Shown here in pieces: positions 1,519 through 62,548 of a DNA stretch of 64,000 nt; within the stretch, counting starts at the first letter, position 1, and each line of letters begins with the position of its first letter. The notes under the pieces are model-generated. The model saw only the letters and a program-made list of their open reading frames with translations. It made no database searches and was not told the origin of the DNA. Source of the DNA: Escherichia phage Eps7. The position numbers and the translations under genes are program-made. The stretch lies in the sequence record NC_010583.1. One strand, 5' to 3'.

Positions 1519-2007
1519 TTACATCTCAGCAAGTTCTTGCTCAGTAATTACAGTATTGCATAGAGCATCAACTTCTTCATTACCACGAATACCTGAGTGA
1601 CCTTTAACCTTAACAAAGGTTGGATTGGTATCATGGAAGTTAATATACTGTTGAGTTAGTTTAAATGCTTCTTGCCAGAGTTCTAGATTAAGAGGAGTTT
1701 CACCATCTCCCTTCTTCCAGCCTTTCTTCTGCCAAGACCACATCCAGCTTTCCATACCATTTTTGCAGTAAGCAGAATCAGTGTAGATAATTACTGGACG
1801 ATTATCTTTCTTAGTAGACCAACGAAGAACTTCTACAATTGCAGTAAGTTCCATTTCGTTATTAGTAGTTTTAGGGCTGAAGCCAGATTTAGAGCCAATA
1901 CGATCATCATTATCATTATAGACAACGAATCCCCACGCACCTAAACCAGGATTGCCTTTACATGCACCATCTGTATATATGTGGAAAACCGACATTATTT
2001 GCTCCAA
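1519..2007 (-). CDS. rnh: ribonuclease H (RNase HI family)
   Basis: N-terminal YTDGACKGNPG motif, TNNEMEL, and C-terminal KGHSG..GNE..D motif; 162 aa. Confidence 0.9.
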   Translation of the reverse strand: MEQIMSVFHIYTDGACKGNPGLGAWGFVVYNDNDDRIGSKSGFSPKTTNNEMELTAIVEVLRWSTKKDNRPVIIYTDSAYCKNGMESWMWSWQKKGWKKGDGETPLNLELWQEAFKLTQQYINFHDTNPTFVKVKGHSGIRGNEEVDALCNTVITEQELAEM

Positions 2008-2264
2008 TCAATTTCAAGCCAAAAACCTTCACGCTGTTCATACTTAGCTTCTACAACATAACCTAGTTTGCTAAGTTTTTGCATGACGCTATTTCTAGCG
2101 TTTTCTGAGTATTCAGTTAATCCCTGGATGTGACAGTTAAATTCTTTATCTTTAATAGCTTTGTCAATCTCTACGGCAATAAGTGATTCTAGGTCAATTA
2201 CTTCCTTTTTAATGCTAGCAATAGTATTTTGTTTTGCTTCTAAAGCAGATAAAAGAATAGACAT
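1995..2264 (-). CDS. hypothetical protein (89 aa)
   Basis: ORF overlapping the rnh start by 13 nt (translational coupling). Confidence 0.45.
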   Translation of the reverse strand: MSILLSALEAKQNTIASIKKEVIDLESLIAVEIDKAIKDKEFNCHIQGLTEYSENARNSVMQKLSKLGYVVEAKYEQREGFWLEIDWSK

Positions 2265-2266
2265 AT

Positions 2267-2845
2267 TTATTCTCCAATTACTAAAACATCATGTTGGGAA
2301 GATACACCACACATATAATCTGCACAATGCGTAAAAGCCAGATCAATGATTTCAAATATATCATCTACATCTAAATCTGTGGCTCGACAATCCGCAATAG
2401 CTAAACCTGTACGAATACTGGAAAGTACATCTTCTCCTCCACAGCCTACACCGGCATATTCAACTTCTAGAATAGAAGCATTAGATTGGAAAATAAAGAT
2501 TCTTCCTTTGTAGAGCATAATAAATTGTCCCAGATTAGGTTCAGCATATTTTTCATTTTTCTTTTCGCCAAAATCTTTCTGGTTAAACATATCACGTAAT
2601 TTAGGTACTATTTCCGTATATAAATATTTATCATCGGAAATATCTGCTAAACGTGGTGGTACAGTAAAGCTATGCTCTAGTAATTGTCCCATGTAGAAGG
2701 AACTAGTGTATCCGAAGTACAAATCATCAGAGATTTTGAATACTTTCGGATTTTTAACCAGCAGTTTCGTATAGCCATTAGAACCCATACGATCACCAGC
2801 TAAGTATACTTTATCTTTATATTTAAATGCTACTATGGCTGTCAT
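2267..2845 (-). CDS. HslV/proteasome beta-like Ntn-hydrolase peptidase
   Basis: MTAIVAF..VYLAGDRMGS N-terminus (Thr2 nucleophile, AGD) and GVGCGGED matching the HslV GSGG region; 192 aa. Confidence 0.7.
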   Translation of the reverse strand: MTAIVAFKYKDKVYLAGDRMGSNGYTKLLVKNPKVFKISDDLYFGYTSSFYMGQLLEHSFTVPPRLADISDDKYLYTEIVPKLRDMFNQKDFGEKKNEKYAEPNLGQFIMLYKGRIFIFQSNASILEVEYAGVGCGGEDVLSSIRTGLAIADCRATDLDVDDIFEIIDLAFTHCADYMCGVSSQHDVLVIGE

Positions 2846-2875
2846 TATTAAATCCTTCTGTCAAATTAGAAGTAT

Positions 2876-2904
2876 ATTATATTTGAATTTCACTCAGTAA
2901 GCAA
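2876..2904 (-). promoter_or_regulatory. sigma70-type promoter TTGCTT-17-TATAAT
   Basis: minus strand reads CATTTGCTTACTGAGTGAAATTCAAATATAAT, upstream of an AAGGAT RBS. Confidence 0.55.
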
Positions 2905-2920
2905 ATGAAATTTAAATATA

Positions 2921-2938
2921 ATAGCCCCGAAGGGCTAT
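2921..2938 (-). terminator. hairpin with UUCG tetraloop, followed by a T-rich tract
   Basis: ATAGCCCCGAAGGGCTAT; minus-strand RNA forms C(UUCG)G stem-loop then UUAUAUUU. Confidence 0.5.
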
Positions 2939-2943
2939 TTGAA

Positions 2944-3297
2944 TTAGATTATAATCAAGATTATTAGGGCGTATGTCAGATAATGCAGTAACTGATCAAA
3001 TCCTAAAGCTATCCAAAACTTAGCATCGCTTATAGCATATTTACAGCGTTGTGCTTTCCAATAATCTATAATAAAGTGTAGAATTAATTCCATAATAGCT
3101 AAAGCTATAGACATTCCTGGTGATGTGAATAGGATTAGAATTGCAAATGTTAATCCAGCATGTACTAGCGAATGGGTTAATAATGGAAGTTTCCACCCTA
3201 TTTTATGCGTCTTTCTTAGCATATATGGTGTTTGGAGTGGATAATCGGCCATAAAATGTTTTAGAAAGAATATGACAAATAATAGTATAATTAACAT
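2944..3297 (-). CDS. hypothetical multi-pass membrane protein (His-rich)
   Basis: 117-aa ORF with three or four hydrophobic segments. Confidence 0.5.
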   Translation of the reverse strand: MLIILLFVIFFLKHFMADYPLQTPYMLRKTHKIGWKLPLLTHSLVHAGLTFAILILFTSPGMSIALAIMELILHFIIDYWKAQRCKYAISDAKFWIALGFDQLLHYLTYALIILIII

Positions 3298-3300
3298 ATG

Positions 3301-4155
3301 TTACACCGTAAATGGATATGCAATAGCAGGATGGTGTTCATAGCCACGAACAGTAAAATCATCCTTACTTACCCACGTTAATACATCATCCAAAGTTCTA
3401 ATATTTGGATTGATTTCTAAAGTAGGAGGTGCAAAAGGTTCACGATCGAATTGCTTGTGCTCCATCAGAACATTATACTGATCTTCATAGATATGAAGAT
3501 TAATAATCTTTTGACGAGCAATACCTGGCTTAAGACCTGTAATCTGTGCCATAATAGCTAGAAGTGCATAGCATTGCACCATATTAAATACTTGGCCCAG
3601 CAAGAAATCATTAGACCTCTGGAAAGAGTTTAGGTATAGTGTATCACCTAAAATAGAGAATTGATGGGTATGCATACACGGACGTAGGCATCCTTTACGA
3701 AATTCCCCACGGGTTCCAAAAGTTAAAATTTCTCCACGATCGTCAATCCCTCTTTTCAAATTATGATAGACTTTGGCTAACTGATCAAATACCATACCAT
3801 CAGAATTAGTCCAATGACGTCCTTGAACACCATAGACTCGTCCCATATCATCCTCGCCTTTACGGAATGGATTACCTAGCCAGGCAATATTTTCATTTGC
3901 ATTAGCATTCCATGTATTAACACCAATAGCGCGGAATTGTGCTGCTGAGTCGTACCCACGGAGATATCCGATCATTTCCATTATTGCTTGTTTAGCAAAT
4001 GCTTTACGAGTAGTTACTAGCGGCAGTTCTCCTGCTCCTACGTTAAAGGTAAAGTCTGCATCAATAATGGTTAGGCAACGAACCCCTGTTCTAGGATTCG
4101 TTACCCATACACCCTCTTCAAGAATACGTTTTCCAGTTTCAATATATTGCTTCAT
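3301..4155 (-). CDS. thyA: thymidylate synthase
   Basis: active-site region [10 protein letters not shown] (Cys nucleophile) and overall ThyA-like layout; 284 aa. Confidence 0.95.
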
Positions 4156-4680
4156 TTAAATATCACCAATTCTTGTAAGAATGAAAGCGTTTTATCTGCA
4201 TTCTGTCCTGCCACATAGTCCATTCTAGTTGCCATTGAATTATAAGTAATATGATGATGCAGATGTACATCAGCAGATAATGGTGTGGCTGAAGTAATAG
4301 TAGAGATATACGCCATATCTAGATGATTTTTTGACATACATTTCAAGAAGCAGAGTTGCTCCCCCTAATACTACAGTTACCTCTTCCTTGAGAAAATCAG
4401 GCAGACGGTATCCAATGTTGCTTATGCGTGTAGCTGATCTTATAGAGTTCGGTAGTGGTCTATTTGCATAAATAAATAGGTCAGAATCTCCTAGTATTCT
4501 TTTTTGCAGAGTCTCAGGGAATGCTAACCAAGTTCCTGCTCCTACAATAATATTGTCAGGTGCCAGAGAATCCAATGTAGCATAGAAGATATCTAGTTCT
4601 TCTTTGAAAGAACCCCAGGGGAGCTTACCATTGAGGCCGAACTCCCCATTCGGCCCAGTTGCATAGATTGCTGCTATCAT
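4152..4680 (-). CDS. frd: dihydrofolate reductase, interrupted by a frameshift in a homopolymer
   Basis: N-terminal [22 protein letters not shown] and GGATLL motifs; frame is lost at T6 (4327-4332) and a DHFR-like C-terminus resumes in the overlapping 64-aa ORF; total ~166 aa. Confidence 0.8.
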
Positions 4681-5825
4681 TAGAACATATCCTCAAATTC
4701 GTTGCCAAGATCTTTCAGAGTATCAGCAGATGTTTCTGTTACTTGACCTACACGATACGCTGCGCCAATCTGAATCTCTTGCGGAGCAGGTTGTAAAGAT
4801 GTAGTATCCAACCAGTTCATAATCCACGGAATAGGGTTCTTAGTAATTACAGGTAAGTGGCTTGGCCATTCTACACCAATGTGCATAAATGCGTTACGTC
4901 CTACAAAGTAAAGGTATTCTTCAAGCAGTTCTGCGTTCAAACCAATCAGACTGCGGCCTTTAAAGATAAAGTGGCCCCATTCAATCTCAGTTTTCAGAGT
5001 TTTTAGGAGTTGTGTTGGTGCTTTAGCTAATGCTTCATCTACCAGATCTTTATCAAATTGCTGGAACATAATCTGGATGATAGCTTTAGACATTTGAGTA
5101 TGTAGAGCTTCATCTTTAGCGATTAATTGCAGGTTCTTAGCAATACCTTGCAGAATATCGTTCTCTGCTAGAGCAAAGGTACATGCAAAGGATGCGTAGA
5201 ACTGCATTGCTTCCAGACCGTAGATTGCAAAGTAAGCATCTAACAGCTTAGCCTGAGTTTCACGTTTAACTTCAGGGAACTCAGTTTCTGGATAAGTATT
5301 ATCACCACGATGATCACGTACTGCAAGGAAATACTGACCTAACAGATACAATTCATCAAACAGTTCAACAGAATCTGCGATACGTGCAAATGCTTCTTGG
5401 TTTTTAGTTACAGAATCAATAAATTCTGCTGGATCAGTCAGAACGTTACGAATAATATTACTATACGCACGGCTGTGCAGATCTTCGAAGTAGCTCCACT
5501 GCTTGAGCATACCCTCCAATTCAGGACGGCTTACAAGCGGCATAATAGCTGCTTCAGGAGCACGGCTAATGAAAGAATCTGTTTGGGTCTGCCATGCTAA
5601 GTTCAGGAGAGTAATTTCCTGAATATCACGCGGAAGGTTTGGCCATTGTTTCTTATCGGCTTCCAGACTGATTTCAGTTTCAGTCCAAAATTGAGAACGT
5701 TGCAGAAGTGCTAGACGCTCAAGTTCAGGATGTGCTACACGAACGTAATCTGCGATACCAAGAGAATCGCCCAGGAAAAGGTCAGCGTTAGTATGATCCC
5801 AATTCAGGTTTAGTAAAGTAGTCAT
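4680..5825 (-). CDS. nrdB: ribonucleotide reductase class Ia beta subunit
   Basis: collinear with E. coli NrdB (EDLHSRAYS, FYASFA, AKDEALH iron-ligand regions); 381 aa. Confidence 0.95.
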   Translation of the reverse strand: MTTLLNLNWDHTNADLFLGDSLGIADYVRVAHPELERLALLQRSQFWTETEISLEADKKQWPNLPRDIQEITLLNLAWQTQTDSFISRAPEAAIMPLVSRPELEGMLKQWSYFEDLHSRAYSNIIRNVLTDPAEFIDSVTKNQEAFARIADSVELFDELYLLGQYFLAVRDHRGDNTYPETEFPEVKRETQAKLLDAYFAIYGLEAMQFYASFACTFALAENDILQGIAKNLQLIAKDEALHTQMSKAIIQIMFQQFDKDLVDEALAKAPTQLLKTLKTEIEWGHFIFKGRSLIGLNAELLEEYLYFVGRNAFMHIGVEWPSHLPVITKNPIPWIMNWLDTTSLQPAPQEIQIGAAYRVGQVTETSADTLKDLGNEFEDMF

Positions 5826-5891: not shown

Positions 5892-6374
5892 TTATAAACT
5901 ATCAAGCTCCAATAGTTTAGCATCGCGCCATTCTATAGCATCCTCTAATTCTTTAAATGTTTTAGTATGTTTTACACCTTTCCTAGCTATTTGGACTTGA
6001 TAAGATCCACTTGCTTTTTGGTGTATATTTTTAATACCTAACTTATTGTCCTTATGTGCTCCAACGTTCTTTCCATTACTAAATCTGTTAGAGGCTAGTA
6101 AATTAATTGCTCTATTATCATGACGTATTCTATTATCATGATCTACTTCTTTTGGGATGTACCCATGCGTAATATAGAATGCTAGGATATGTGCGTAGTA
6201 TTTTGTACCTCTTACCTGCATTACTATGTATCCTGAGCATTTTTCCAAAGAGCCTGCCTCTTTGCCTGCAAACTTAGTATTAAATGATTTATCTTCTCTA
6301 GGTTTGTGGGTAAAGATTCCGGTTTCTGGATTATAGTCAAATAACTCAGCTATTTCTTTGTATTTTTCTTCCAT
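5892..6374 (-). CDS. HNH homing endonuclease with AP2-type DNA-binding domain
   Basis: HILAFYITHGYIP..VDHDNRIRHDNRAINL (HNH) plus GVKHTKTFKELEDAIEWRD (AP2-like); sits between nrdA and nrdB. Confidence 0.8.
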   Translation of the reverse strand: MEEKYKEIAELFDYNPETGIFTHKPREDKSFNTKFAGKEAGSLEKCSGYIVMQVRGTKYYAHILAFYITHGYIPKEVDHDNRIRHDNRAINLLASNRFSNGKNVGAHKDNKLGIKNIHQKASGSYQVQIARKGVKHTKTFKELEDAIEWRDAKLLELDSL

Positions 6375-6429: not shown

Positions 6430-8822
6430 TTATAATTGACAACCACCAGATGCGCATCCAGCAGCAGCTTCCTCTCCTGCACCTCCACCATTTTCAGTGT
6501 TGAAGTTTGCATAATAAAAGGTTTTCCAACCGTACTTAACAGCAGTCATAAAGTCACGAACTACTACTGGGCCGGGAATGATTTCATTCTCGAACTTGGT
6601 GTAGTCATAGTACATATTCGTACTGATAGACTGGCTGAAGAATTTCTGCATGGTTGCTACCCATTTGATCCACTCGATACGATCTACATCATAAGCCAGT
6701 TTATAGCTCATTAATGTATCCCAATCAGTTGCACCTGGAGCAATTGCAATTACTTTATTAACTGCACTACCCTTGATAGATACGATCTTACGGGGCGGTT
6801 CGATAGAGTTAGTAACACCTAGCAGTACAGAGGAACTTTCACCTGGCATCTGAGCAGTCAGAACAGAGTTGCGCATACCATATTTCAGAATATCTGCACG
6901 CAGAGATTCCCAATCCATTTCTAGACCTACAGTTACCAGTTCATCAACAGTTTTCTTGTACGTGTCGATTACCAGAGTTCCTTGCGAAGGCTTAGTACGA
7001 TTAAACCAGTCACATGCACCTTGTTCTTTAGCCAGACGTACAGAGGCTTTATGTAGGAAGTAGGACAGCTTTTCAGCTTCACGGTGAATCCAGTTACGTG
7101 CTTCAACACCTTCGTAAGCCAAACCTTCTGCTGCCATTGCACCTGCTGCGTTCATCAGACCAATACCAACGTTACGACGTTTCTTAGCCGTGTACTTCCA
7201 TAGTTGGGAATGGGTAATCCTGAATCTCGATGATTGTATCAACGAATTTCAGAAGGATGTAGCAAGTTTTCTCCCATTCAGCCAGAGATTCCATGCGGCC
7301 TAGTACAACACCACCTAAGTTACACAGAGATACTTCACCAATATCTTCTGGACGCATATCGTCTAACTGATCTTGGGTTTTATACAGTTCCGTAACGTGA
7401 TGGAATGGACGGGTGGCTGAGTAATTCAACACAAAAGGGTTGGTCATACGAATCGGGTCAAGGAAGTTACCATGACGGTTAGATTCACCAATGTGATGAG
7501 CATACATACGCCCTGTTTCCATACGGATACGTAACCAAGTATCTAGGATTTCTTTTGCAGAGATTCTAGGAGCTGCTGGAATTGTTTTTCCTTCGTGGTC
7601 GATCTTTGTAAGAGAAGCCACACGTTTCTCCGCTGCCACGTAGATTTCTTCAAACTTAGCCTCATCTTCACCATAAAACGCTTCATGAACTTCTGGTGCG
7701 TAGAAGTAGGACATTAGCGTAATATCTTCGTTTTTCAGGTAACGTTTTAACAGAAGGTTGTTAAAGCTCAGAGAATAATCCATCTTATCGATTTTATTCT
7801 CGTCTGTAGCACGTTGCTGCTTAACCTGCATCAACTGAATGATTTCAGGATCGAAGTATGGATAAGACACAGTAGCAGAACCGCCACGGGTTTGCTGAGT
7901 GTTAGCTTTTACTGATCGGTCAATGTGTCGATAATATGGCAGTTTTCCGGAATGCGGGAATGCCCCATTTCGCACCGGATCAGCAATTGATCGGCTTTCA
8001 AGATGATACCCGATTCCCGCTCTGGCTGCGACCATTTTGAAGACGATGTGCTCGGCTGTGTCGATTGAATCCAGCGTGTCAGTGGAATCCACGAGACAGC
8101 AACTAGCAAATCCACGGTCACTAGAGCGCAGGCCAACCAGTGGCGGCGTAGGAACGTTGATTTTGTGGAGCGACATTGCATTGTAGAGGTCGATTGCATC
8201 TAGGATTGTCCAGTTAGGTTGAGATAACATCGCCATTGCCATACCCATGTAGGCAAACTGCGGGGTTTCATAAATTTCACCAGTTGCAATATTACGACGA
8301 GAATACTTGTCGAAGAACTGTTTCAGTCCACCACTGGTGAATAAACGATCGCGATCATGATCAATAACTTGGTTCAGAGCGTCAAACTGATCATCGCTAA
8401 TCCATGCACTCATGTCTTCCCAGCGCCAACACGAACCATATGATCGTGGAAGAAACGCAGAGAAGGGGTTCAAAGGAATCATATAGGCGTTTACGCATCT
8501 GCGCAAGACGTAATTCCTTTGCTACAGTATCATATGCTGGGTTGTCTTTGATAAGACCTTCAGCGGCTTTAATTAACACATCTTGGAGGGTATCGGAATC
8601 TACAACACCTTTTGGTAGATTTTTCTGGGCAGACATAACGACGGCAGACCAACTTACGTCAGTTGCTTTACATGCCCATGCAGCCCAATCATTGAGTTTT
8701 TCAGGAGCAAAGTCCTGAACAGTACCGTCACGTTTAATTACTTTTTCAATACTATGGCTCATTGGGGTTTCCTTTTTGTAGTTATCAGGATTTAGGAAAT
8801 ATTCTACTTTGTTTTGGGTCAT
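6430..8822 (-). CDS. nrdA: ribonucleotide reductase class Ia alpha subunit, split over three frames by single-base indels
   Basis: ATP-cone N-terminus (8397..8822), catalytic core (7184..8506) and C-terminus GIGLMN..CASGGCQL (6430..7242) are collinear with E. coli NrdA; frame breaks at G4 (8465-8468), CCC (8419-8421) and about 7181-7190. Confidence 0.9.
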
Positions 8823-9129: not shown

Positions 9130-9429
9130 TTACACCTTCCCCATATCCTTAAAGATATCGTAGAATGCTTTAGACTCCGGTGAGCGAACGTTGTCGATCA
9201 GTTCGATCATAGAGAAAGGAGAGTTTTCGTACTTCTCATAGACTTCCATAAGAAGTGCTAGACCTGAATCACCCTTGATGTCTTTCTGAGCTATATCCCC
9301 ACAGATAATTAAACGACAATCTTGTCCTACACGAGTCAGGAGACAGATCATTGCTTCAACGGAGATATTCTGAGCTTCATCGACAATTACATAGGAGTTG
9401 TTGAATGTTGCCACGCTTTCTTGAACCAT
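9130..9429 (-). CDS. PhoH-like ATPase, C-terminal half only (Walker B onward)
   Basis: VIVDEAQN, LTRVG, GDIAQKD, SGL and VRS motifs; no Walker A upstream; an out-of-frame ATG with AGGAG RBS lies at about 9463. Confidence 0.65.
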   Translation of the reverse strand: MVQESVATFNNSYVIVDEAQNISVEAMICLLTRVGQDCRLIICGDIAQKDIKGDSGLALLMEVYEKYENSPFSMIELIDNVRSPESKAFYDIFKDMGKV

Positions 9430-12284: not shown

Positions 12285-12447
12285 TCTAGAAAACATGCTT
12301 ATGGAGCAGTGGAACTCTGGGTATAATGCTGGGGTGGCTACTTGTATTGCGGGGTTGGATATGCTTATTAAGCAAGAAAAGGTACGTCCAGAAGAAGCAA
12401 TTCTACTCCAAAATATCATCGAAGGATTCAAGCAAGGAATCGTATAA
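12253..12447 (+). CDS. hypothetical protein (64 aa)
   Basis: GGAGGAG RBS 7 nt upstream of ATG 12253; overlaps previous ORF. Confidence 0.4.
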   Translation: MDFLNQNLKNNLENMLMEQWNSGYNAGVATCIAGLDMLIKQEKVRPEEAILLQNIIEGFKQGIV

Positions 12448-13261
12448 TGCGTAGACTAATCGTTGTTAGTGGTGCAGGTTTGAGTGTAGATAGTGGTGTT
12501 CGTGCTTTCCGTACTGATACTGCTAGTGGTAAAGCGTTGTGGGATGATTATGACCTAGAAGAGGTATGTAATATTCATGCCTTTCGTGGTAATTTTACCA
12601 TAAAACTCATATGTTTTACAACAAACGTCGTGAAGAGTTACAAACTGTTGAACCTAACCTAGCTCATTTGCGTATTGGTGAATGGTATAAACGGTATCCA
12701 AATCAAGTGGTAAACCTTACTACCAATGTTGATGATCTAATCGAACGTGCTGGAGTGCCGAGAGAAGATATACTCCATATTCATGGATATCTGAAAGAAA
12801 TTATTGTAGAGCATGCGTTCGACCAGACACGTGATGTTATTGATATTGGGTATAGTTCTATTGATCCAGATGACTTTGATTGGGTTAAACCTAACGTTAT
12901 CTTCTTTGGTGAGGTTGCTCCTGCCTATAAAACAATGTATGAGGTTTTTGATGGTATCACCAGTCATGATATGATCATCATTGTTGGGTGCTCTAACCAA
13001 GTAATTAACTTCTACTGGGAGCTATTTCCTGTTCTGAATCTTACTGCTGCAAAACTTATGGTAGTTAACTATTACGATAGTGCAGTAGCTATGGAACCAG
13101 GCTATCAGGGCATGACTCGTAGTGAAATGTATCAGTTAGAAGAACGTGGTATTCCTTACTGGAGTAAAGGTGCTGTGGATGCCTTTAGTGATCCCGATTT
13201 TATTGCTCGTGTGGAAGCTCATCTAGAAGGTAAACCCTATGTTCAACAAAAGCATGTGTGA
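12447..13261 (+). CDS. Sir2-family NAD-dependent deacetylase / ADP-ribosyltransferase-like protein, frameshifted
   Basis: VVSGAGLSVDSGVRAFR (GAGxS..SG..FR), TTNVDDLIERAG, HG, KPNVIFFGE, IIVGCS motifs; frame break at T4 (12594-12597). Confidence 0.8.
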
Positions 13262-36640: not shown

Positions 36641-36718
36641 TTTAGTAAGGAGTTGTTTTACTAATTCCTTTATTTTATTAATCTTTTTTTTTTTGAAAGG
36701 GTGCAAAACGAACCTCTT

Positions 36719-42319: not shown

Positions 42320-45169
42320 TTAAATAGATGCCCAATCCACAGATTGCTCGCCATTATCACCTTCTGCTCTTATACGGAAGCGTAACTTCCTATTAATACC
42401 CAGAGCATCCTCATTATGAAGAGCATAGTCTGCCTTATTGTATATCAGTAGATAATCGTAGACATACTGATCTTCAATTCGTACACTTCTTAATAAACGA
42501 TCTAGGTTATCGTAGATTTCGAGAGTGTAGAAGATTCCATCAATGATATCTTCTTCTGGAATTCTATCCCAGGCCAATTTAACGTCTGGTCCTACAAACT
42601 CCGAAGCATCTCCTGAAGCTGTATTAGTAACCCTGAAGTTACTAACGACGCTTAAGTTTTTAGCAGAGTTAAGTTCTACTGATAATGTTACAGGAGAACT
42701 TCGTCTACCATTAATATCTACAGCTCTAATCTCAAAGACTGCTAAACCAGCAGGTTCTCCAATAATTTCTTGGATCATTCGTAGATTTGGATTAGTTTCT
42801 AGTTGCTGTACGATATAAGGATCAGCATGTCCAGAATGAACGATGGAGTAATAAACAACGTTATTAGTTAAGCTAGGAAGCCAAGATAGCTCACCATTCT
42901 TACCAATAGACCCTACTTGTCCACCTGGTGTTGGTGTATACATAAAGTCTCTAGGAGGCAGTACGTTATTACTAACATCAGGGATATCGTTACCACTATT
43001 ATCAACCTGCTCGGAGTTAATGAATACATCCTCACCATACTCTTGCAGTGTAATATTAATCTTACCTTCTCTAGAGTTTTCAACTTCATCAACTAGGAAG
43101 TATTTCTTATCCCAACCATAACGACCATATGTAAAAGCAACCGGATCGTTAGGCTCAATACCTATGAAATGATATGGTAATGAGAATGTGAGAGTTCGTG
43201 AGTAACGAGATTTTTTCAGTTCTCTATCTGCAAAGCTACGTGCAGTATAATAGTTAGTGATGTTTGCAAAAGAAAGCTGAAGTTTTTTATCTAATCCTTT
43301 ATCTTGTTCTTTAAATATAGAGTTAAAGAATGTAATGGAGTTAGTTTTCCAGCTTAATGCGGGATCTAGTATAGAGGCCTGTACTGAGTTGAATTTATTT
43401 CTGCCAGTAGTATCTGACAATTCCAGATCACCATAGGTATCTAAGAAGTCAATCTCCAGTGGAGTATTCGAGAACTTCTCAACAGTTATTCTATACTGAC
43501 CAGATAAGTTGTTGATAGCACCCCCATAAGACTCTATTAATCCCTGCACGTTTTTAAATACTGACTCAGAGGTATCGAGAATAGTGTTCATTTGAACTAT
43601 TTGTCTATTCTCTCCTACAGCATCAGTCCATCCAACGTATCTCCAGTAGGGTTGCCAAGAAACCTGATAGGATTCATCAATTATATCCAGAATAGCTGCT
43701 TCTTGAATAAGTTGCTGGAGAGGGAACTGATCAATAGTGATATTAGCACCATAGCGATCAGAGGTTAGGTAGTCCAGAGTTTGCCAGATACCATTTAAGC
43801 TAGTCTTATCAGCAGTTACTCTACCATCTGAATGATAGATCTTAATCTTCTTACCTTGAACTTCAGCGCTAACTTCTGGAATTTCTGTTCTGTTTTCATT
43901 AATAGTAAAGCGAACAATAGCGTAAGCAGTATCTAACAGTTTATAACGAGAGTCCCAGTATTCTGGTCCATTCTCATTCATGTTCTGTAGGTAGAAACCT
44001 TTCTCTTTTGCAATGTTAACTAGAACATCCGCAGCAGATTGGTCTGCTTTACCATGATAAGTCCAGATACGTATATCGCCATTACCATCGTTATACCTAT
44101 ATTCCTGTCCATGAACAGAGGGTTCAGAGCTTGATTGACCAGAAGCAATACGTTGCATGGTATCTCCAGCTACTTTCTTAGTACCAAAGCAAGTACGAGA
44201 CTTACTATCGTTAGGATCAATACAGATCATTGGTACATCACCAAAGTAGAAATCTAGAAATCCATCAATCTCACCCTCACAGAAGGCATATACTATATAT
44301 ACGATATTAGGGTTATGCAGCTCAGTATCCGCAAATACGGGGATTCCAGGGATTTTCTGAGTTCCATACACTACTGGAAGGAACTTAGCCGCTAAGTTAA
44401 AATCGATGTCAACTTCCTTAGTCACAGTCTCATAGTATTTCTTTAGGCTATAGCTTCTAGAAAGACCAAATAACTTTTTCTTAGACTGTAACTTGTAACG
44501 TTCTTCCTGAACCTGATACTTAGCGAGAATAGAAATACTTTTATTAGCATGGAAGAATCCGTAGTCCTCTTGATACTCAGGTCGCTTAGCACCATTAGAT
44601 GGAACTAATTGGCCAGCAACAATCTCAAGTCCCCTATGGTCAGCATCGTCTGTGAAACGTCCGTTTACTCTATCAAAGTCGTAAAACTGGTTCGAACAGT
44701 TCCATGTGATAGTGGATGTGCTAATTCCAGAAGTACCAATGTTATCCTTAATACCACCACCAGTGATTTTACCACGGAAGTAAAGTAAAGGACCATTAGT
44801 GTCTGGATCCACAGGAAGAATGTTACCTTCTTCATCAATAACCGCTTGATGGATTGAGATGGATCTATCTAGGAATGATACACCATTTTGGACTAGTTTT
44901 AATACTTCATCCTCAGCAGTACCTGTGATAGTAAAAGAAAGACTACCAATGGAAAGATCTCTATTTTGTTTATGTGTTGTTATAGACTTAACCTTACCGG
45001 ATGTATAAAGAATCCCATTATATCTTACATCTCTAAAATAATCTGTAAGATATATGTAGGCAGAACTTGATCCAGTAGAGCTTGGCAATTCAAGAGTAAT
45101 AAGGCATGCAGTTTTTATTTTATTATTAGTTCTTAAATACTCTCTTGCACTGTCAAGAATTTTCTTCAT
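42320..45169 (-). CDS. baseplate hub protein (pb3-like)
   Basis: 949 aa, immediately downstream of the distal tail protein. Confidence 0.75.
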   Translation of the reverse strand: MKKILDSAREYLRTNNKIKTACLITLELPSSTGSSSAYIYLTDYFRDVRYNGILYTSGKVKSITTHKQNRDLSIGSLSFTITGTAEDEVLKLVQNGVSFLDRSISIHQAVIDEEGNILPVDPDTNGPLLYFRGKITGGGIKDNIGTSGISTSTITWNCSNQFYDFDRVNGRFTDDADHRGLEIVAGQLVPSNGAKRPEYQEDYGFFHANKSISILAKYQVQEERYKLQSKKKLFGLSRSYSLKKYYETVTKEVDIDFNLAAKFLPVVYGTQKIPGIPVFADTELHNPNIVYIVYAFCEGEIDGFLDFYFGDVPMICIDPNDSKSRTCFGTKKVAGDTMQRIASGQSSSEPSVHGQEYRYNDGNGDIRIWTYHGKADQSAADVLVNIAKEKGFYLQNMNENGPEYWDSRYKLLDTAYAIVRFTINENRTEIPEVSAEVQGKKIKIYHSDGRVTADKTSLNGIWQTLDYLTSDRYGANITIDQFPLQQLIQEAAILDIIDESYQVSWQPYWRYVGWTDAVGENRQIVQMNTILDTSESVFKNVQGLIESYGGAINNLSGQYRITVEKFSNTPLEIDFLDTYGDLELSDTTGRNKFNSVQASILDPALSWKTNSITFFNSIFKEQDKGLDKKLQLSFANITNYYTARSFADRELKKSRYSRTLTFSLPYHFIGIEPNDPVAFTYGRYGWDKKYFLVDEVENSREGKINITLQEYGEDVFINSEQVDNSGNDIPDVSNNVLPPRDFMYTPTPGGQVGSIGKNGELSWLPSLTNNVVYYSIVHSGHADPYIVQQLETNPNLRMIQEIIGEPAGLAVFEIRAVDINGRRSSPVTLSVELNSAKNLSVVSNFRVTNTASGDASEFVGPDVKLAWDRIPEEDIIDGIFYTLEIYDNLDRLLRSVRIEDQYVYDYLLIYNKADYALHNEDALGINRKLRFRIRAEGDNGEQSVDWASI

Positions 45170-45780
45170 AGACTTTCCCTCAAGGAAAGTGAAATACCAG
45201 TATATGTACCATTGCTATTTAACGTAGAGCCGAAGCTGTCTCCATTCATTAATTTAGTTCTAAATAGAATACCATTAAATACCGGTTTCTCACTACCCGT
45301 AGTAGTAATGAATAGATCAGGATAAACACTTATATTCCAAGTATTTCCTGCTGTGTTGATAGAAGTGATTTTATACACTTTTGGATGATTGGACAACTTA
45401 AATAAATCTCCTGGTTTAGGCAGTCCACGAAGTGTACCTTTAGTGTCCATAATAACTGTTGAACCTTTTTGTCCAGCAGGAATATTTACAGCACTAGTAT
45501 CACCACGAACTCGGAAAGCCTCATATTGTGGTAATAACACATCAATATAGCTACCTGTTCTTTTATAATCTAGGATGAATGAGTCTAATTTAGCAAATTC
45601 ATCTGGGAATAATTCTGGATAAGAGATATTAATACCCCAATATTGAGCAGACACCTTAACCTCCCTAACTTTACCATTAGGTAATTCATCACGAATCATA
45701 GGGTCATTGTCTACTAAGTTAACGCTTTCAAAACCTAACCCTGATAGCTCTGGGTTCGTGTATGGGTCTGGTAGTCTCAT
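45166..45780 (-). CDS. distal tail protein (Dit, pb9-like)
   Basis: 204 aa, directly downstream of the tape measure; AGAGGAG RBS. Confidence 0.65.
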   Translation of the reverse strand: MRLPDPYTNPELSGLGFESVNLVDNDPMIRDELPNGKVREVKVSAQYWGINISYPELFPDEFAKLDSFILDYKRTGSYIDVLLPQYEAFRVRGDTSAVNIPAGQKGSTVIMDTKGTLRGLPKPGDLFKLSNHPKVYKITSINTAGNTWNISVYPDLFITTTGSEKPVFNGILFRTKLMNGDSFGSTLNSNGTYTGISLSLRESL

Positions 45781-45844
45781 AGTTAATTTCTCCTCTTAAT
45801 AACAATATTATAATAGGATTGGAAAATTTTATCAAGAAATTTTT

Positions 45845-45882
45845 ATTTTTCCATAAAGAAAGGAGGACATAAAGTCCTCCTC
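45845..45882 (-). terminator. rho-independent terminator after the tape measure gene
   Basis: AGGAGGAC-UUUA-GUCCUCCU followed by a U-rich tract on the minus strand. Confidence 0.6.
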
Positions 45883-45887
45883 CAGTA

Positions 45888-48800
45888 TTAAGAATTACCA
45901 AGTGATTTCAGGGTGGTTCCATTCTCATTAAGAGCCTGTTCCACGGCATCCCTGAAAGCAGCACTGTTACTCGAAGCAAAGTCTCGGAAGCTAGCCGCAT
46001 CCATCGTACTGATGTTCAGCACAATAGGCCTACCCGATGTACCCTTTGAAGATCCTTTGAGTTCATCAGTAGGAGTAGCCTTCATCGGAACCATAGGAGT
46101 GATTACTTCGGTACCATGCTCACCCATCTGGTAACTAACTCCAGGGTACATATTACCACCTTCTGCACGAGGTACGAAAGAGTTCGCATTACCAATCCCT
46201 TGATCTCCTCGAATATAAGAAAGTTCTCCTGCGTTAGCCGACATAGAAACGTCTACGTTCTTCTGGCGCTCTCCAAGAGACAAGTATTGAGCTGTCTCAG
46301 TACCCGAGTCTCCAATAGAAGACATACCAGATGCAGAGGATGCTTGTGCAAGAGACAATGCACCTGCAACACCTGCTGCAATCATAAGAGGGATAGACCA
46401 CGGGTAAGGAACAGCTGTTGCTGCTTGCATCACCGCTACTGCCGTCTGAATTATGATCTGCTTCTTAGCTGCGTCTTGCTGGATCTTAACCTTTTCCGCT
46501 TCCAGTTTCTTGAGCTTAGCTTTAGATGCTTCGGATTTACCGTCACGTTTTTGCTCTGCTGCAATAGCCTGGTCAATAGCTGATACTTGATTACTTACTC
46601 CCATAGCAATCATTGAAGAAACCATCTGCATACCTGCCGCCACAGTGCTAACAGTATCTAAAGATCCCTGAGAGAACTGCATCATGGCATTAGTAAGATT
46701 TCCCATACTCTGGCCAACTTCCGTTGCTTGGCTATTTAATGCTCCAAGTTTAGAAATAGCTTCGTCGTAAGAGGCCATCTGGTTCTGCATATCAGCATAC
46801 TTCTTATCATCCCCAGATAAACCAGTCGTAGGAGTATAAGTAGCTCCAACAGAAGAACCTACCTGTTGCTGCATCTGAGCATTACGTTGTGCTGTTAAAG
46901 CCGACATCTGAGCCCTTGTCTTGGCTATTTCAGCATTCCAGCGCATTTGCTCGTTAGCATTACCTTTGGTAAGTTCTTTCATCTTGGTATAAAAATCTAA
47001 CTGCATTTCCATTTTTTTGCATTTCCCCTGCCAGAGGGAACATGGAAGTTAGAGTATTTTCAAAGGCTTCTTGCCTTTTACTGGTCATTTCAGCTTGCTG
47101 GTCTTGGCGGAATTTCCAGATTTCACGCCCTATCTGTGCTTGAGCACGTCTTGATTGTTCAGCTTCTTTCTGCTTATCAGCTTGTTTTGTATACCATTCG
47201 TACTTCTCTTTTTCAATAGTCAATTCAAGATTTAACTGTGCTAGACGATACTGAGTATCTGTCATAGTACGGTTATTTAAGAGAGCTATTTCACGATCAA
47301 CACCAAGAATCTTATCCGTATAGTCCTTAACTTTCTTCTGAGCTTCCATGTCCTGGTTAGTAATTTTGATACGTTCTAACTGAACCTTAGCTATTTCATT
47401 CTCAATTGCCTTGTTACCTTTGTTAGTTTCTAGGACACGCTTAAGAGCTGCTTCCTGTTCTTCTAACTGTTGGATTTCTAGACGTCTACCCGCTTCCTGT
47501 GCTTTCTCTTTATCCTTGGTCTGGTTGTACACTTCGGCAATCTTTTGCTGAACTTCTAGCTGATTTTTAGTCTCATTACTAGTTAATTTTACATAACCAG
47601 CAAGAGCTTGTGAGGCAGTCTTCATCTCACTAAGAGTATTATACCCTAAGTTCAGACTCTTAACATACTCATCAGCATTTTTACCAGTGCCGGCAGATAG
47701 AGACTCAATAGTCTTAATCGTATCCGATAGGGATGCACTAGTTTTAGCCGCAGTATTAGTATTTTCGGCAATGTTCTGGATATCGTTAGCTAAATCACTA
47801 GCAGTTTTCTTAGCCTGATCATATGCTTTCTGCTGTTCCGTCAGTCCTTTCAGAGTTGCGGAGTTAAAGTCATAAACCGCATCAGGGTCATTCATATCCT
47901 TCTGCAGATTAATCTGCTTCTGAAATTCTGGATTAGTCTTAGCAGCCGCAGCACCAGCAGCTTGATACGCAGATTTCCAAGCATTAAGGTTTTCAGTAGA
48001 GTCATCAACTTCTTTACCTAACCTTGCTACCTGTAGTCCCATAGCTGCGGTTTCTTCTACAAACTTTTTGTTAGCTTCGGAAGAACCTATGCGCACTCCC
48101 CCTACTTCAAATCCCCCAGCAGCTAATCCAACAGGCATTCCCTCACCCACTAATCTAATAGCGGCAGCAGTACTAGCATCTGCTTGGGACATACGTTTAT
48201 CAAACTCAGTCTTTAGTTTATTACGCTTATCCAGAGACTCTTTATACATATCAAGAGCTTTATTATATCCTTCCTCGGAAGCGGAAAGACTTAAAGCTAC
48301 AGCACCAACGTTAGTTGGGTCAATCTGACGGTTAGTTTCTTCTTGTGCTCTAGCAGCAGAAGCCGAGATAGATGCTTGAGAAGTATAGAATACTGCGTTA
48401 ATAGAATCAATTACCGGCCCTAAATACTTAGCAGCAGCCTGTTGAACCTTTCTTAGTGCAGCATCAGCGTTAGCAGCAAACTGTTCCCATGGAGTTGCAC
48501 GGAGTACGTCATCCAAGTAGCCGAAACGTTTAGTAGATTCAGCAATTACTGCGTTAGCATATGCTTGTTGCTTTTGGAAAGTGGAAAGACTATTGACGTT
48601 ATATGTGATACCTGTGTTAGCAGCATTTAACTGTTTAACGTAGTCAGCGTAAGCATCATTAAGACGAATAGTAACACCAAGTTCGTCCAGAAGTTCGATT
48701 TCTTGTTTAGATACACCTTTGATTACACGGTTAAGTGCATCAGTCATATCAACACCAAGAACAGCAGCAGCACGACGGGCTACTAGACCAAATTTATTAA

Positions 48801-49599
48801 GTTGTTCAGCATCGAATCCATATGCAGAAGCAGAGGATGCCTGTCTCATTGCTTCTTCGAAGGAGATTGCATAACCAGCAGCCTCTTGTAGAGATCTAGC
48901 TAGAGTTTGTACCGGAGTACCTGTTTGAGTACCTACAATAGTACCGAACTTCTCCAGACGGTTTAACTGGTCACCCATCTTAAGTTGTTCGAATGCAGAT
49001 TGTAGAACGAACACGTTAGATGCGATAGCAGCATACATAAGAGGTAGAGAACCACCAACTTTAGCCATTGCTGCGAAGTCACGAGTAGCACCACGTGCAG
49101 AACCAGAGGTATTACCTAGAGCACGACTAGCACGACCTGCGGATGTGGTAGTATCATTGAAGCCTCTAGTAGTACCCGACAAAACACGGTTTGTATCATA
49201 TAATCTATCTTGAACTTTTTCAGTTGCAGCAGCTACATCGTTACCCATCGCCTTAACAGATTTACCAACATGTGTAAATCCAGACTCTAGCTTATCGGAT
49301 ACCTCAATCATAGCAATAGCAAGGTCATCTAACTTAGCACCAATACTATCCATAGATTTGGTGATACCCATCATACCTCTGCTAGCCTGCATTTTTGTTA
49401 GACTTTTAGCTGCTCTATCCGCCGCCCTCTCAATGGAGTAAAGAGTTTTGGGCATTTTTCCCAACTGCTCGTTAGTCAGTTCGGAAGCGGCAGCAGCATT
49501 TTCTAACGCATCGGAAACGTTCTCAATAGATTTTGCAGTACGGGTTGCCCCTTTCTGCTTTACATCTATAAGTAGTTCTCGTATTAGCTTATCAGTCAT
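45888..49599 (-). CDS. tail tape measure protein (pb2-like), frameshifted
   Basis: long coiled-coil protein; 879-aa and 374-aa ORFs join (~1236 aa) if the T7 run (47013-47019) is read as T6. Confidence 0.9.
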
Positions 49600-49610
49600 T
49601 TATTTTTCCC

Positions 49611-49645
49611 AATAAAAAAAGGCTCTGGGCAAATCACCCAGAGCC
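49611..49645 (-). terminator. rho-independent terminator immediately upstream of the tape measure start
   Basis: GGCUCUGGG-UGAUUUG-CCCAGAGCC followed by U7. Confidence 0.7.
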
Positions 49646-49680
49646 AAGCCTCATCGTGGAACGCCCATTGGAGGAAACTT

Positions 49681-50049
49681 TTACTGAGCTCGAGATCTAG
49701 CATGCGGTTTAATGTTCGGAGTACGACCATTAGGTTTACTATGCTTCTCGGCTCTCTTACGAGCTGCATCTACAGCTTTCGAATCAAATATATTGATGAT
49801 GTGTAGAACAAACTCTTTTTCTATAGGATCAGTAACCCCATAGATATCAAATAAAACACCTAGTGCACTTTTATCTTTTCCTATAAAGATAGGAAAGTCA
49901 CCTGGTATGAAACAGTCAATAAGGCTGTTATAAATATTCATACTAGTAGATACAATAGGTGGAAAATCTTCGAGTTCAACAGGCATTGCCTTAGGATCAG
50001 GTTCAATACCTAGTGAATCACAAAGCATTAAATATTGTTGTTTTGTCAT
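49681..50049 (-). CDS. putative tail assembly chaperone
   Basis: 122-aa ORF directly upstream of the tape measure. Confidence 0.45.
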   Translation of the reverse strand: MTKQQYLMLCDSLGIEPDPKAMPVELEDFPPIVSTSMNIYNSLIDCFIPGDFPIFIGKDKSALGVLFDIYGVTDPIEKEFVLHIINIFDSKAVDAARKRAEKHSKPNGRTPNIKPHARSRAQ

Positions 50050-50110
50050 TTTAGACGCTGAGGATTTAATACATTTATCTGCAAAATCGGCAACAGCATC
50101 TAGTAACTGC

Positions 50111-50515
50111 TTACGCTTTTGAGCTACGAAAAGTGTCTAAGTGGAACACTGTCTGGTTGATCCAAGAATCAAACGCAGCAGAGTTCTGCATAAGCATGAT
50201 AGCGTTATCGCGACTAAATGGAACTTCAGTAGTAGGATCAGCTTCAGTTTCGATAAGCATCAGCTTCTCAACATCTCCAATCGTCAAGCCAGTCCAGCCA
50301 GCAATTGCAGTGTCAACGAAAGCTTCAATAAACTTATCATCGTCCTGAACTTGAATCATAGTACCGTTAACCCACTCATCACGCTTAGCGGAAGAGATAA
50401 CACGCTTAGATGCAGCACGAGACATGTAGTTTAGTTGCAGCTTGAAGTTAGGCATACCTGGGTAAGCCAGCTCAATAGTACGAGTTTCAAGGGTAATATC
50501 TTTTAAATTGATCAT
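50111..50515 (-). CDS. putative tail assembly chaperone
   Basis: 134-aa acidic ORF upstream of the tape measure. Confidence 0.45.
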   Translation of the reverse strand: MINLKDITLETRTIELAYPGMPNFKLQLNYMSRAASKRVISSAKRDEWVNGTMIQVQDDDKFIEAFVDTAIAGWTGLTIGDVEKLMLIETEADPTTEVPFSRDNAIMLMQNSAAFDSWINQTVFHLDTFRSSKA

Positions 50516-58406: not shown

Positions 58407-58946
58407 TATAAGAACCTTGCGAATCCTGATTTAGTTTCAGTCTTGACTTGTGTCTTTTCTTGAGGATTCTGTAGCTTTTCCTTTTGTTTAAGAACCCATG
58501 CCTTCTGCTTATTAGCAGAGAAAAGGGGAGGTTCTTTAGTGTACACCTTATGTAATAGTTGGTGATGGTGGACACAAAGGGTAACAGTGTCATCTACTAG
58601 CTCATGCCTATATCTTTCATAGAATGCCGTCCTATTTGAGAGGACTGTTTCTTCGTCAGTGAAATCCAACTGGAGTTCTTTAGCAAATTTTTTAACTAGT
58701 AGAGACACTGTATGGTAATGATGAAGCTCTAATTCTTCACCACAACCACAGATTTCGCAGCGATCGGCTTTTTTTATATTGACTTTTTATACCGTCTCGC
58801 ATGAGTGATATAGCATCACGTTTATATTTTACATTTCCTGCCACAGTATTCTCCTCAACTGTATGAATATAGTATACATAATCATGTCGAATTTGTAAAG
58901 GGATTTTAAAATGCAGGAATGGGATACCAACTGAGTAGTATCCCAT
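58406..58946 (-). CDS. HNH endonuclease, frameshifted
   Basis: CEICGCGEELELHHYH ... LCVHHHQLLH motifs restored if the T7 run (58769-58775) is read as T6. Confidence 0.65.
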
Positions 58947-60860: not shown

Positions 60861-62548
60861 TTACCAAGGTTTTTTATTATAAATATATCCATTTCTACGA
60901 AAAGCCATCTCATCAGGTCTACTAGCCCACGTTTGGGTATAGCTATATGAAGTTGTACTGTGATATGGTACTAGATAGCCAGGTGGCAGAGTAAGAATCT
61001 GATGAAATACACCATCACCAGCTGTATAACTTTGTTGACGTCTACCTTGTACCTGCCAAGCACTACCACCGTAAGTACGTACAGGCATACCAGCAGTATT
61101 AAGATTACCCATAATAACTTCAGTAGTTAATATAACAGTAGAGTGAGCATTTGGTAATCCCAACCAAACTGTAGCCAAAGGTGTGTAGAAGTCACCAGCA
61201 CCAGGGTAGGATGGAGTTATATCATCCCCAACATAAGTACTCGCAACGTTGCCTGGGAATAATCTAAGTGGTACGGTACTAGGACTCCATACAGGGCCAT
61301 GCTCATTACCTATAGAGTTGGTATTAGTATCTACATACCACTGTTTACCAACACCAAATTTATAAAGGCTAATTTGAGAAGCAGCACCCCCATAGTTAAC
61401 AGGAGACCACAAACCCCCATTACTAGAGCCGATAAATTCACATCGTGCAGTATTATCACCAAAAACTCCGGTATACGCGGTATTATTACCAACATACTCC
61501 ATATCAGGGCGATAACCTAAGTTTCCAAAAGCATTCTGGTTAATAAATTTATAGCCTGAGTTGGGTAAGCTAACACCTTTAATAGTAAAGTTAGATGGAG
61601 ATATCAGGATATCTGAACCAGTAAATGGATTACCAGAAATCCCCATACTACCATTAGAATAGCGTAGATTTAGCACATACCAAATAACTTTAGTAGGTGT
61701 AACATTATACCAGTCTTGCACATATACCTTTCTAGCTGACTGAGCAGCCATATTAGAAGTAGAACCTCTACAAACATATATTTTTTCTGGGTATGCAGGA
61801 GATTGGTAAAGAACGTTTACGTTATCTGGTAGTACTACCTTTTTTTACCGGCAAAGCCACGAATATTGGAACTACAAACGTAAAACCAATCATGACCTCT
61901 ACCAGCAGACCCGATAGGCGCTTGCCAGTTAGGCTCCCAATAGTCTGCATTACCACCATCTATAGGAACTGTAGATACACCCGTTGGAAAGCCCATTAAT
62001 CCCCAGGCTCTAGAAATAGCTTCACCAGCAGAAACACCACCAGGTCTAAAGATCTGGAAACCGGAAGATTGTAGCAAAGTACCGCCAGTTCCTTGTCTAG
62101 CAATAGATTCCTCATGACCTAGGCTACCATTATAAATATAGGTACCATGAGCTAAACTATCACCGATTGCAAAGGCAGATGTTATTGCCAATTCAGCACC
62201 AGCACGTGGTTGGTCTTCAAAGAATGTTAAAAACTGGCCAACCTGAGATTGTGTACCATTAAGGAAACCCCTATGAGTACCGTTTATCTCAATAGCAGTT
62301 AATATAACTCTACCAGGATCATTGGATTTAATGTTTATAATATCCCAAGGCATCTGAGTAACAAAATACCCATTACCTGCATCACCTAGAGCAGCCTCGT
62401 AAGTCCCATCAACTAGGACAAATGGCATATCTGAGTGGAAGATACTATTAGTATTTGGAGAGTAGTGCTGATTTATATCACCACCATTAGCAGCGTTTAG
62501 AGATAATACAGTTTTACCATCACTAAATTTTCCTGCGAAAAAACTCAT
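60861..62548 (-). CDS. receptor-binding tail protein (functional analogue of T5 pb5/Oad), frameshifted
   Basis: 237-aa and 296-aa ORFs join (~560 aa) if the T7 run (61840-61846) is read as T8; divergent from an Llp-like lipoprotein gene. Confidence 0.6.

What the first reader, a model, noticed from the sequence alone, without database searches (positions are those of the whole stretch)
45888..49599. Tape measure gene split at a T7 run
The 879-aa and 374-aa ORFs fuse into one ~1236-aa protein if the run at 47013-47019 is T6. Tape measure length sets tail length, so this must be intact in a viable phage.
Basis: seen in the sequence. Interest (0 to 1): 0.4.

Follow-up and report, generated by a model that had tools for sequence, protein, structure and literature searches.

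The report
Tape measure gene split by sequencing error
The tail tape measure gene of this T5-like Salmonella phage looks split only because the assembly has one extra T in a homopolymer run, and at least ten other genes in the window are broken the same way, so this is a sequencing artefact and not biology.

Summary
Two minus-strand ORFs, 46960..49599 (879 aa) and 45888..47012 (374 aa), overlap at a T7 run. The run lies at 47012-47018, one base off the stated coordinates. Removing one T gives a 3711-nt, 1236-aa ORF.

The window is a T5-like Epseptimavirus. The three closest relatives (99.0-99.3% identical) have T6 here and one 1236-aa CDS. The repaired gene aligns with theirs without gaps, and differences are almost all synonymous on both sides of the run. 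The repaired protein matches T5 pb2 (1219 aa) end to end.

The split is not special to this gene. Ten other real genes in the window are frame-broken by 1-2-nt indels against relatives. All five mononucleotide runs of 7 or more in the window are one base longer than in relatives. A relative of similar divergence has no frameshifting indels inside genes. The exact T7 sequence was found nowhere else.

Conclusion: a homopolymer over-call in an error-prone assembly. Programmed recoding is very unlikely, because more distant relatives do not keep the run (CAAAAG). Interest is low.

The parts
47012..47018 (-). T7 on the + strand, A7 on the coding strand. This is the homopolymer with one extra base that breaks the reading frame between codons 862 and 863.
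   Evidence: Bastian, PMBT27 and 8sent65 have T6. BSP22A and 1-29 have TCTTTT, which is CAAAAG on the coding strand.
46960..49599 (-). 5' fragment of the tape measure gene: residues 1-862 of the true protein plus 17 out-of-frame residues (NGNAVRFLYQDERTYQR) before a stop.
   Evidence: PHROG 3779 positions 1-865 of 1225.
45888..47012 (-). 3' fragment of the tape measure gene, corresponding to residues 863-1236 of the repaired protein.
   Evidence: PHROG 3779 positions 854-1225. Aligns without gaps to T5 pb2 residues 850-1219.
49354..49599 (-). Tape measure N-terminal domain (Pfam TMP_N PF24164, residues 1-82).
   Evidence: E = 1.9e-37.
46341..46457 (-). Hydrophobic stretch (IIIQTAVAVMQAATAVPYPWSIPLMIAAGVAGALSLAQA). 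[quoted passage not shown]
   Evidence: Near-identical to T5 pb2 in the alignment. Function taken from PMC10038345.
46167..46169 (-). Arg codon homologous to T5 pb2 R1127 (FVPR|AEGG), the maturation cleavage site ahead of the muralytic C-terminal peptide.
   Evidence: Gapless alignment offset. Cleavage site from PMC10038345.
45897..46004 (-). Tape measure C-terminal motif (Pfam TMP_C PF24165, repaired residues 1199-1234). In T5 this is the helix that sits in the baseplate-hub cup.
   Evidence: E = 1.1e-20..
49681..50515 (-). Two tail assembly chaperone ORFs (134 aa and 122 aa) directly upstream of the tape measure gene.
   Evidence: PHROG 313 and 3914..
45166..45780 (-). Distal tail protein (pb9-like), directly downstream.
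   Evidence: PHROG 1302.
42320..45169 (-). Baseplate hub protein (pb3-like, 949 aa). Some relatives mislabel it as the tape measure protein.

Best explanation
The window carries an ordinary, single pb2-type tape measure gene of 3711 nt (1236 aa) from a T5-like Salmonella phage (Epseptimavirus). The apparent split into 879-aa and 374-aa ORFs comes from a one-base over-call of an A6/T6 homopolymer (read as 7) in an assembly with a generally high indel error rate. In the real phage the protein is made as one chain. By homology with T5 pb2, it fills the tail tube as a trimer and sets tail length. During infection it is expelled to form the envelope channel and to release a muralytic C-terminal peptide. 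Shown here: the run length difference, the exact repair, the homology, and the window-wide excess of frameshifting indels. Inferred: that the cause is sequencing or assembly error, since no reads are available, and the protein's function, which rests on T5 work.
For: (1) The three closest relatives (99.0-99.3% over 45800-49700) have T6 and one 3711-nt CDS. All 25 listed records matching the 151-nt segment around the run span 150 bases, one fewer than the query, and none of the 33 matching records reaches 100% identity.
(2) After deleting one T, the gene aligns without gaps to those relatives. Differences from bastian are 12 synonymous to 1 nonsynonymous upstream of the run and 7 to 1 downstream, so the downstream part is under purifying selection in the fused frame.
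(3) The repaired protein aligns 1-1236 to T5 pb2 1-1219 and to a 1227-aa relative, identically across the junction (LTSMFPLAGEMQKMEMQLDFYT). Pfam TMP_N and TMP_C sit at the two ends.
(4) Of the 70 BSP22A CDSs that align over more than 80% of their length, 11 have premature stops in the window. Ten are real genes: DHFR, RNR large subunit, ligase B, a 983-aa tail fibre, pb4, pb2, a minor tail protein, two structural-module hypotheticals and the receptor-binding protein. The controls show only 2 (bastian) and 1 (1-29), all in tiny or dubious ORFs. A Sir2-like gene is also split. In pb4 the inserted A is the only difference in 2058 nt.
(5) Isolated indels not divisible by 3: 9 of 17 lie inside CDSs in the window, against 0 of 10 in the two control genomes (Fisher p = 0.009).
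(6) All five mononucleotide runs of 7 or more in the window are one base longer than in relatives. Run-length changes rise with run length: 1/313, 5/106 and 2/16 for runs of 4, 5 and 6. The controls show 1/329 and 2/605.
(7) The exact T7 sequence is absent from IMG/VR and from the metagenome collection, while the T6 version occurs in 4 IMG/VR contigs.
Against: No reads or quality values are available, so error is inferred rather than observed. Several of the other indels (22290, 51203, 8466) are not in homopolymers, so the error process is not purely homopolymer miscalling. The source record could not be identified, so the sequencing platform is unknown.
Confidence: 0.93

Rival explanations
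1. The extra base is real. The sequenced DNA carries a genuine +1 insertion in the tape measure gene, for example a defective variant in the stock or a non-viable genome recovered from an environmental sample.
For: Homopolymer runs are natural hotspots for polymerase slippage. The sequence as given does contain T7.
Against: The same genome would also need inactivating frameshifts in the receptor-binding protein, pb4, a minor tail protein, a tail fibre, ligase B, the RNR large subunit and DHFR. No phage could propagate with all of these. The downstream ORF shows no decay: it has no stops, and 7 of 8 differing codons are synonymous. The variant was not seen in any other record or contig.
Confidence: 0.04
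2. Programmed recoding. The A7 run is a slippery site where RNA polymerase slippage (loss of one A) or +1 ribosomal frameshifting makes full-length pb2 alongside a truncated 879-aa form.
For: A7 tracts can support low-level transcriptional slippage (general knowledge, not tested here). Only three pb2 copies are needed per tail, so a low yield could in principle suffice.
Against: Every relative examined encodes the protein in one frame, with A6 or with the run interrupted as CAAAAG, so neither a two-ORF layout nor a slippery run is conserved. The shift needed is +1, and the next 0-frame codon is an ordinary AAU, not a stop. The other broken genes show the same kind of lesion with no plausible recoding role.
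Confidence: 0.02
3. The phage truly makes two separate functional polypeptides: a coiled-coil ruler (879 aa) and a separately initiated membrane and muralytic C-terminal protein (374 aa).
For: The downstream ORF starts with ATG directly after the run. T5 pb2 is naturally cleaved into two pieces, but at R1127, far from this position.
Against: That ATG is simply Met863 of the intact protein in relatives. The break falls about 280 residues upstream of the natural cleavage site. No relative has this arrangement. The window-wide frameshift pattern explains the split more simply.
Confidence: 0.01

Closest known systems
Bacteriophage T5 tape measure / pore-forming tail tip protein pb2 (1219 aa; PDB 7ZHJ, 7ZN2, 7ZQB, 7ZQP)
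   Same: The repaired protein aligns end to end with it (1-1236 vs 1-1219, E = 0). The C-terminal 370 residues align without gaps. This stretch includes the hydrophobic segment, the FVPR|AEGG cleavage site and the C-terminal helix. The gene order is the same: chaperones, tape measure, pb9, pb3, pb4.
   Different: It is 17 residues longer, and the central coiled-coil part is diverged (for example a 9-residue insertion near residue 496 relative to the 1227-aa homologue). As written in the window, the gene is interrupted by one extra base.
Tape measure proteins of Epseptimavirus phages bastian, PMBT27, 8sent65 and ende (1236 aa, annotated as 'pore-forming tail tip protein' or 'tail length tape measure protein')
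   Same: Same length after repair (3711 nt), 99.0-99.3% nucleotide identity, and only 2-3 amino-acid differences.
   Different: They carry T6 where the window has T7.
Error-split tape measure genes in public records, e.g. Salmonella phage MET_P1-197_46 (PV804859.1)
   Same: An Epseptimavirus record whose tape measure gene is annotated as four consecutive CDSs and whose hub protein is also in pieces. It is the same kind of artefact.
   Different: The break points differ from the window's. It is a different genome.
Programmed frameshifts in phage tail genes (lambda G/GT-type tail assembly chaperones)
   Same: A tail-module gene pair joined by a frame change. The chaperone pair just upstream in this window (49681..50515) may be a true example.
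   Different: Real programmed shifts are conserved among relatives. The tape measure split is unique to this sequence, and its run is not conserved.

Membership tests
T5 pb2-type tape measure protein (Pfam TMP_N PF24164 + TMP_C PF24165; PHROG 3779) | N-terminal TMP_N domain | tested here: met
   residues 1-82, E = 1.9e-37, 128 bits against a cutoff of 27.
T5 pb2-type tape measure protein (Pfam TMP_N PF24164 + TMP_C PF24165; PHROG 3779) | C-terminal TMP_C motif on the same polypeptide | tested here: inconclusive
   The motif is present (residues 1199-1234 of the repaired protein, E = 1.1e-20). In the sequence as given it lies in the second ORF. It joins TMP_N on one chain only after the 1-nt repair, which relatives support.
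T5 pb2-type tape measure protein (Pfam TMP_N PF24164 + TMP_C PF24165; PHROG 3779) | Full-length colinear similarity to T5 pb2 | tested here: met
   1-1236 vs 1-1219, 1566-1570 bits; the two ORFs cover PHROG 3779 positions 1-865 and 854-1225.
T5 pb2-type tape measure protein (Pfam TMP_N PF24164 + TMP_C PF24165; PHROG 3779) | C-terminal hydrophobic segment, maturation cleavage site (T5 R1127) and muralytic region | tested here: met
   The sequences are conserved in the gapless alignment. Their functions come from PMC10038345 and were not tested here.
T5 pb2-type tape measure protein (Pfam TMP_N PF24164 + TMP_C PF24165; PHROG 3779) | Position between the tail assembly chaperones and the distal tail / baseplate hub genes | tested here: met
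   Same order in BSP22A, 1-29 and bastian.
T5 pb2-type tape measure protein (Pfam TMP_N PF24164 + TMP_C PF24165; PHROG 3779) | Determines tail length; trimer inside the tail tube | not testable with these tools
   Known for T5. Testing it here would need virions.
Programmed ribosomal frameshift or transcriptional slippage site | Two-frame architecture and slippery run conserved among relatives | tested here: not met
   Relatives have one ORF, with A6 or CAAAAG at the site.
Programmed ribosomal frameshift or transcriptional slippage site | Stimulatory context for the required +1 shift (a stop or another slowly decoded codon in the A site) | tested here: not met
   The context is GAA AUG CAA AAA AAU GGA, and the 0-frame codon after the run is AAU, not a stop. 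Codon usage and upstream stimulatory elements were not examined.
Programmed ribosomal frameshift or transcriptional slippage site | Frame-shifted product detected | not testable with these tools
   Needs RNA-seq or proteomics.
Sequencing or assembly indel artefact | Lesion unique to this sequence and absent from near-identical relatives | tested here: met
Sequencing or assembly indel artefact | Similar frame-breaking indels spread over many unrelated essential genes of the same assembly, enriched in homopolymers | tested here: met
Sequencing or assembly indel artefact | Read-level evidence (mixed or low-quality calls at the run) | not testable with these tools
   No reads are available and the source record was not identified.

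The most novel reading that the evidence does not exclude
The A7 tract is real, and full-length pb2 is restored at low frequency by RNA polymerase slippage or +1 ribosomal frameshifting. The phage would then make a truncated 879-aa coiled-coil form plus a small amount of full-length tape measure protein, giving a slippage-dependent (phase-variable) tail gene.
Probability: 0.02. Interest if true: 0.5.

Novelty: not a real feature. Interest (0 to 1): 0.05.

Why it matters
For biology it matters little: the gene is a standard pb2-type tape measure protein that has already been solved structurally. In practice it matters for annotation. The window's assembly should be treated as carrying indel errors, roughly one isolated frameshifting indel per 3-4 kb. 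Any split gene, pseudogene or frameshift-site finding from this window (receptor-binding protein, pb4, RNR, ligase B, DHFR, Sir2-like and others) should be discounted until resequenced. The tape measure gene should be annotated as one 1236-aa CDS with a note on the frameshift.

Tried and rejected
- I looked for the source record or any independent T7 carrier, and found none. The checks were megablast of the gene, of a 25-kb block and of a 151-nt junction segment against GenBank phages, exact-pattern scans of IMG/VR and the metagenome collection, and exact-protein look-ups of both ORFs and of the repaired protein. The best whole-block identity is 97.2%, so the window's genome is not in these collections.
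- My first whole-window alignment used lenient gap penalties and produced many spurious compensating gaps. I replaced it with per-CDS and stricter alignments.
- Phage 1-29 turned out too close to BSP22A to be a fair control (164 mismatches). I added bastian, which is more diverged from BSP22A than the window is.
- I considered programmed recoding and two-polypeptide readings and rejected them, because the site is not conserved and because of the window-wide frameshift pattern.
- I did not run structure prediction or large protein-database searches. Homology to solved T5 pb2 is already end to end.

Full report
**Observation.** On the minus strand the window has an 879-aa ORF (46960..49599) and a 374-aa ORF (45888..47012) that overlap by 53 nt. 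A run of seven T (A7 on the coding strand) lies at 47012-47018. The last A of the coding-strand run is the A of the downstream ORF's ATG. Deleting one T gives a 3711-nt ORF of 1236 aa with no internal stop and the junction …PLAGEMQK-MEMQLDFYTK….

**What the gene is.** The window is a T5-like phage of the genus Epseptimavirus (Demerecviridae). The gene region is 99.0-99.3% identical to Salmonella phages bastian, PMBT27, 8sent65 and ende. A 25-kb block is at best 97.2% identical to any GenBank phage in the collection, so the source genome itself is not there.

- The two ORFs hit consecutive parts of one family, PHROG 3779 'tail length tape measure protein': positions 1-865 and 854-1225 of 1225.
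- The repaired protein has Pfam TMP_N at residues 1-82 and TMP_C at 1199-1234.
- It aligns from first to last residue with the solved T5 pb2 (1219 aa; 7ZHJ, 7ZQP) and with a 1227-aa homologue (8HQO), with identical sequence across the junction.
- The 374-aa part aligns without gaps to T5 pb2 residues 850-1219. That stretch includes the hydrophobic segment, the FVPR|AEGG maturation site (T5 R1127) and the C-terminal helix.
- According to Linares et al. 2023 (PMC10038345), those C-terminal elements insert into the outer membrane, release the muralytic peptide and dock in the baseplate-hub cup. An 879-aa product would lack all of them.
- Gene order matches T5: chaperones, tape measure, pb9, pb3, pb4.

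**Is the split real?** The three closest relatives have T6 at the site and a single 3711-nt CDS.

- All 25 listed GenBank records matching a 151-nt segment around the run span 150 bases, and none of the 33 matching records reaches 100% identity.
- The exact T7 string is absent from IMG/VR and from the metagenome collection, while the T6 string occurs in four IMG/VR contigs.
- After repair, the gene aligns gap-free to the relatives. Codon differences from bastian are 12 synonymous to 1 nonsynonymous upstream of the run and 7 to 1 downstream. The downstream part has therefore been evolving as the continuation of the same reading frame.
- More distant relatives (BSP22A, 1-29) have CAAAAGATG instead of CAAAAAATG. 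The homopolymer itself is not conserved, which argues against a programmed slippery site.

**The decisive context.** The tape measure gene is not the only broken gene.

- I compared BSP22A's annotated CDSs with the window. Of the 70 that align over more than 80% of their length, 11 run into premature stops in the reference frame. They are DHFR, the RNR large subunit (three pieces), ligase B, a 983-aa tail fibre protein, pb4, pb2, a minor tail protein, two structural-module hypotheticals, the receptor-binding protein (three pieces) and one dubious 39-aa ORF.
- The same test gives 2 broken CDSs for phage bastian and 1 for phage 1-29, all of them tiny or dubious ORFs. Bastian is more diverged from BSP22A than the window is.
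- A Sir2-like gene is also split, into 71 aa and 216 aa, covering Pfam SIR2 positions 1-37 and 48-178.
- In pb4 the single inserted A (A5 to A6) is the only difference in 2058 nt.
- Isolated indels with lengths not divisible by 3, in clean context: 9 of 17 lie inside CDSs in the window, against 0 of 10 in the two controls (Fisher p = 0.009).
- Every mononucleotide run of 7 or more in the window (36684 T11, 47012 T7, 49614 A7, 58769 T7, 61840 T7) is one base longer than in relatives.
- Run-length discrepancies rise with run length: 1/313 for runs of 4, 5/106 for runs of 5 and 2/16 for runs of 6. The controls show 1/329 and 2/605.
- A few indels are single-base losses outside homopolymers (22290, 51203), so the error process is not purely homopolymer miscalling.
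- No phage could be viable with its receptor-binding protein, pb4, tape measure and minor tail genes all frameshifted. The simplest reading is an error-prone assembly.
- There is a public precedent: GenBank PV804859.1, another Epseptimavirus, has its tape measure gene annotated in four pieces.

**Rivals.**

- A genuine mutation in a defective genome (about 4%) would need the whole set of lethal lesions to coexist, and the gene shows no decay.
- Programmed recoding at A7 (about 2%) would need a +1 shift in an unremarkable context (…CAA AAA AAU GGA…). It has no support from conservation.
- Two separate functional polypeptides (about 1%) is contradicted by every relative. The natural cleavage site also lies about 280 residues further downstream.

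**Comparison and novelty.** The gene is a regular member of the T5 pb2 tape measure family. The only unmet criterion, a single ORF, is met after the 1-nt repair that all near relatives support. The split is not a real feature. Interest is low (0.05). The practical value is a warning that other frameshift-type observations from this window are probably artefacts too.

**Limits.** No reads or quality data were available and the source record was not found, so 'sequencing error' remains an inference, although a strong one. Resequencing across 46990-47040 and the other listed sites would settle it.

Noticed in passing
window 4327-4332; 6430-8822; 12447-13261; 22290; 37423; 42087; 51203; 53042; 58769; 60875-61846: At least ten other genes are frame-broken by 1-2-nt indels relative to BSP22A, 1-29 and bastian. 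They are DHFR (T5 to T6), RNR large subunit (three pieces), Sir2-like (71 + 216 aa), ligase B (T lost), a 983-aa tail fibre (C5 to C4), pb4 (A5 to A6, the only difference in 2058 nt), a minor tail protein (C lost), a 161-aa ORF (T5 to T6), a 145-aa ORF (T6 to T7) and the receptor-binding protein (three pieces).
   Followed up: yes
window 36684-36694, 47012-47018, 49614-49620, 58769-58775, 61840-61846: All five mononucleotide runs of 7 or more in the window are one base longer than the same runs in relatives. This points to a systematic homopolymer over-call.
   Followed up: yes
window ~9406-9415 (ORF 9130..9429, minus strand): The PhoH-like gene lacks about 408 nt present in BSP22A and 1-29. 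Only Pfam PhoH positions 117-204 remain, and the two alignment blocks overlap by 10 nt at the junction. This is either a real deletion or a misassembly.
   Followed up: partly
window 49681..50049 (-) and 50111..50515 (-): The downstream ORF's frame in the tail assembly chaperone pair is already open from about 50135, in the +1 frame, overlapping the end of the upstream ORF. PHROG 313 (258 positions) covers both ORFs (12-141 and 170-255). This suggests a conserved G/GT-like fused chaperone made by a +1 or -2 shift. Relatives have the same layout.
   Followed up: partly
window 2267..2845 (-): A 192-aa ORF matches Pfam Proteasome subunit PF00227 over its whole length (E = 1.2e-9). Bastian has an annotated hypothetical protein of the same length (192 aa) at the corresponding position. 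A proteasome/HslV-like protein in a T5-like phage is unexplained.
   Followed up: no
window 5892..6374 (-): An HNH endonuclease ORF (Pfam HNH_3) sits between the RNR small and large subunit genes. This slot holds different inserts in BSP22A, 1-29 and bastian, so it is probably a homing-endonuclease hotspot.
   Followed up: no
L014 (PV804859.1) 1590-5293; L001 1-870: Two annotation problems in public relatives. PV804859.1 has its tape measure gene in four CDS pieces, which looks like the same kind of artefact. Bastian labels the pb3-like baseplate hub (949 aa) as 'tail length tape-measure protein'.
   Followed up: partly
window 36684-36694: An intergenic poly-T tract between the early/replication and tail-fibre modules varies in length among relatives: T10 in BSP22A, T11 here and T18 in 1-29. 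A 39-aa ORF annotated over it in BSP22A is probably spurious.
   Followed up: no
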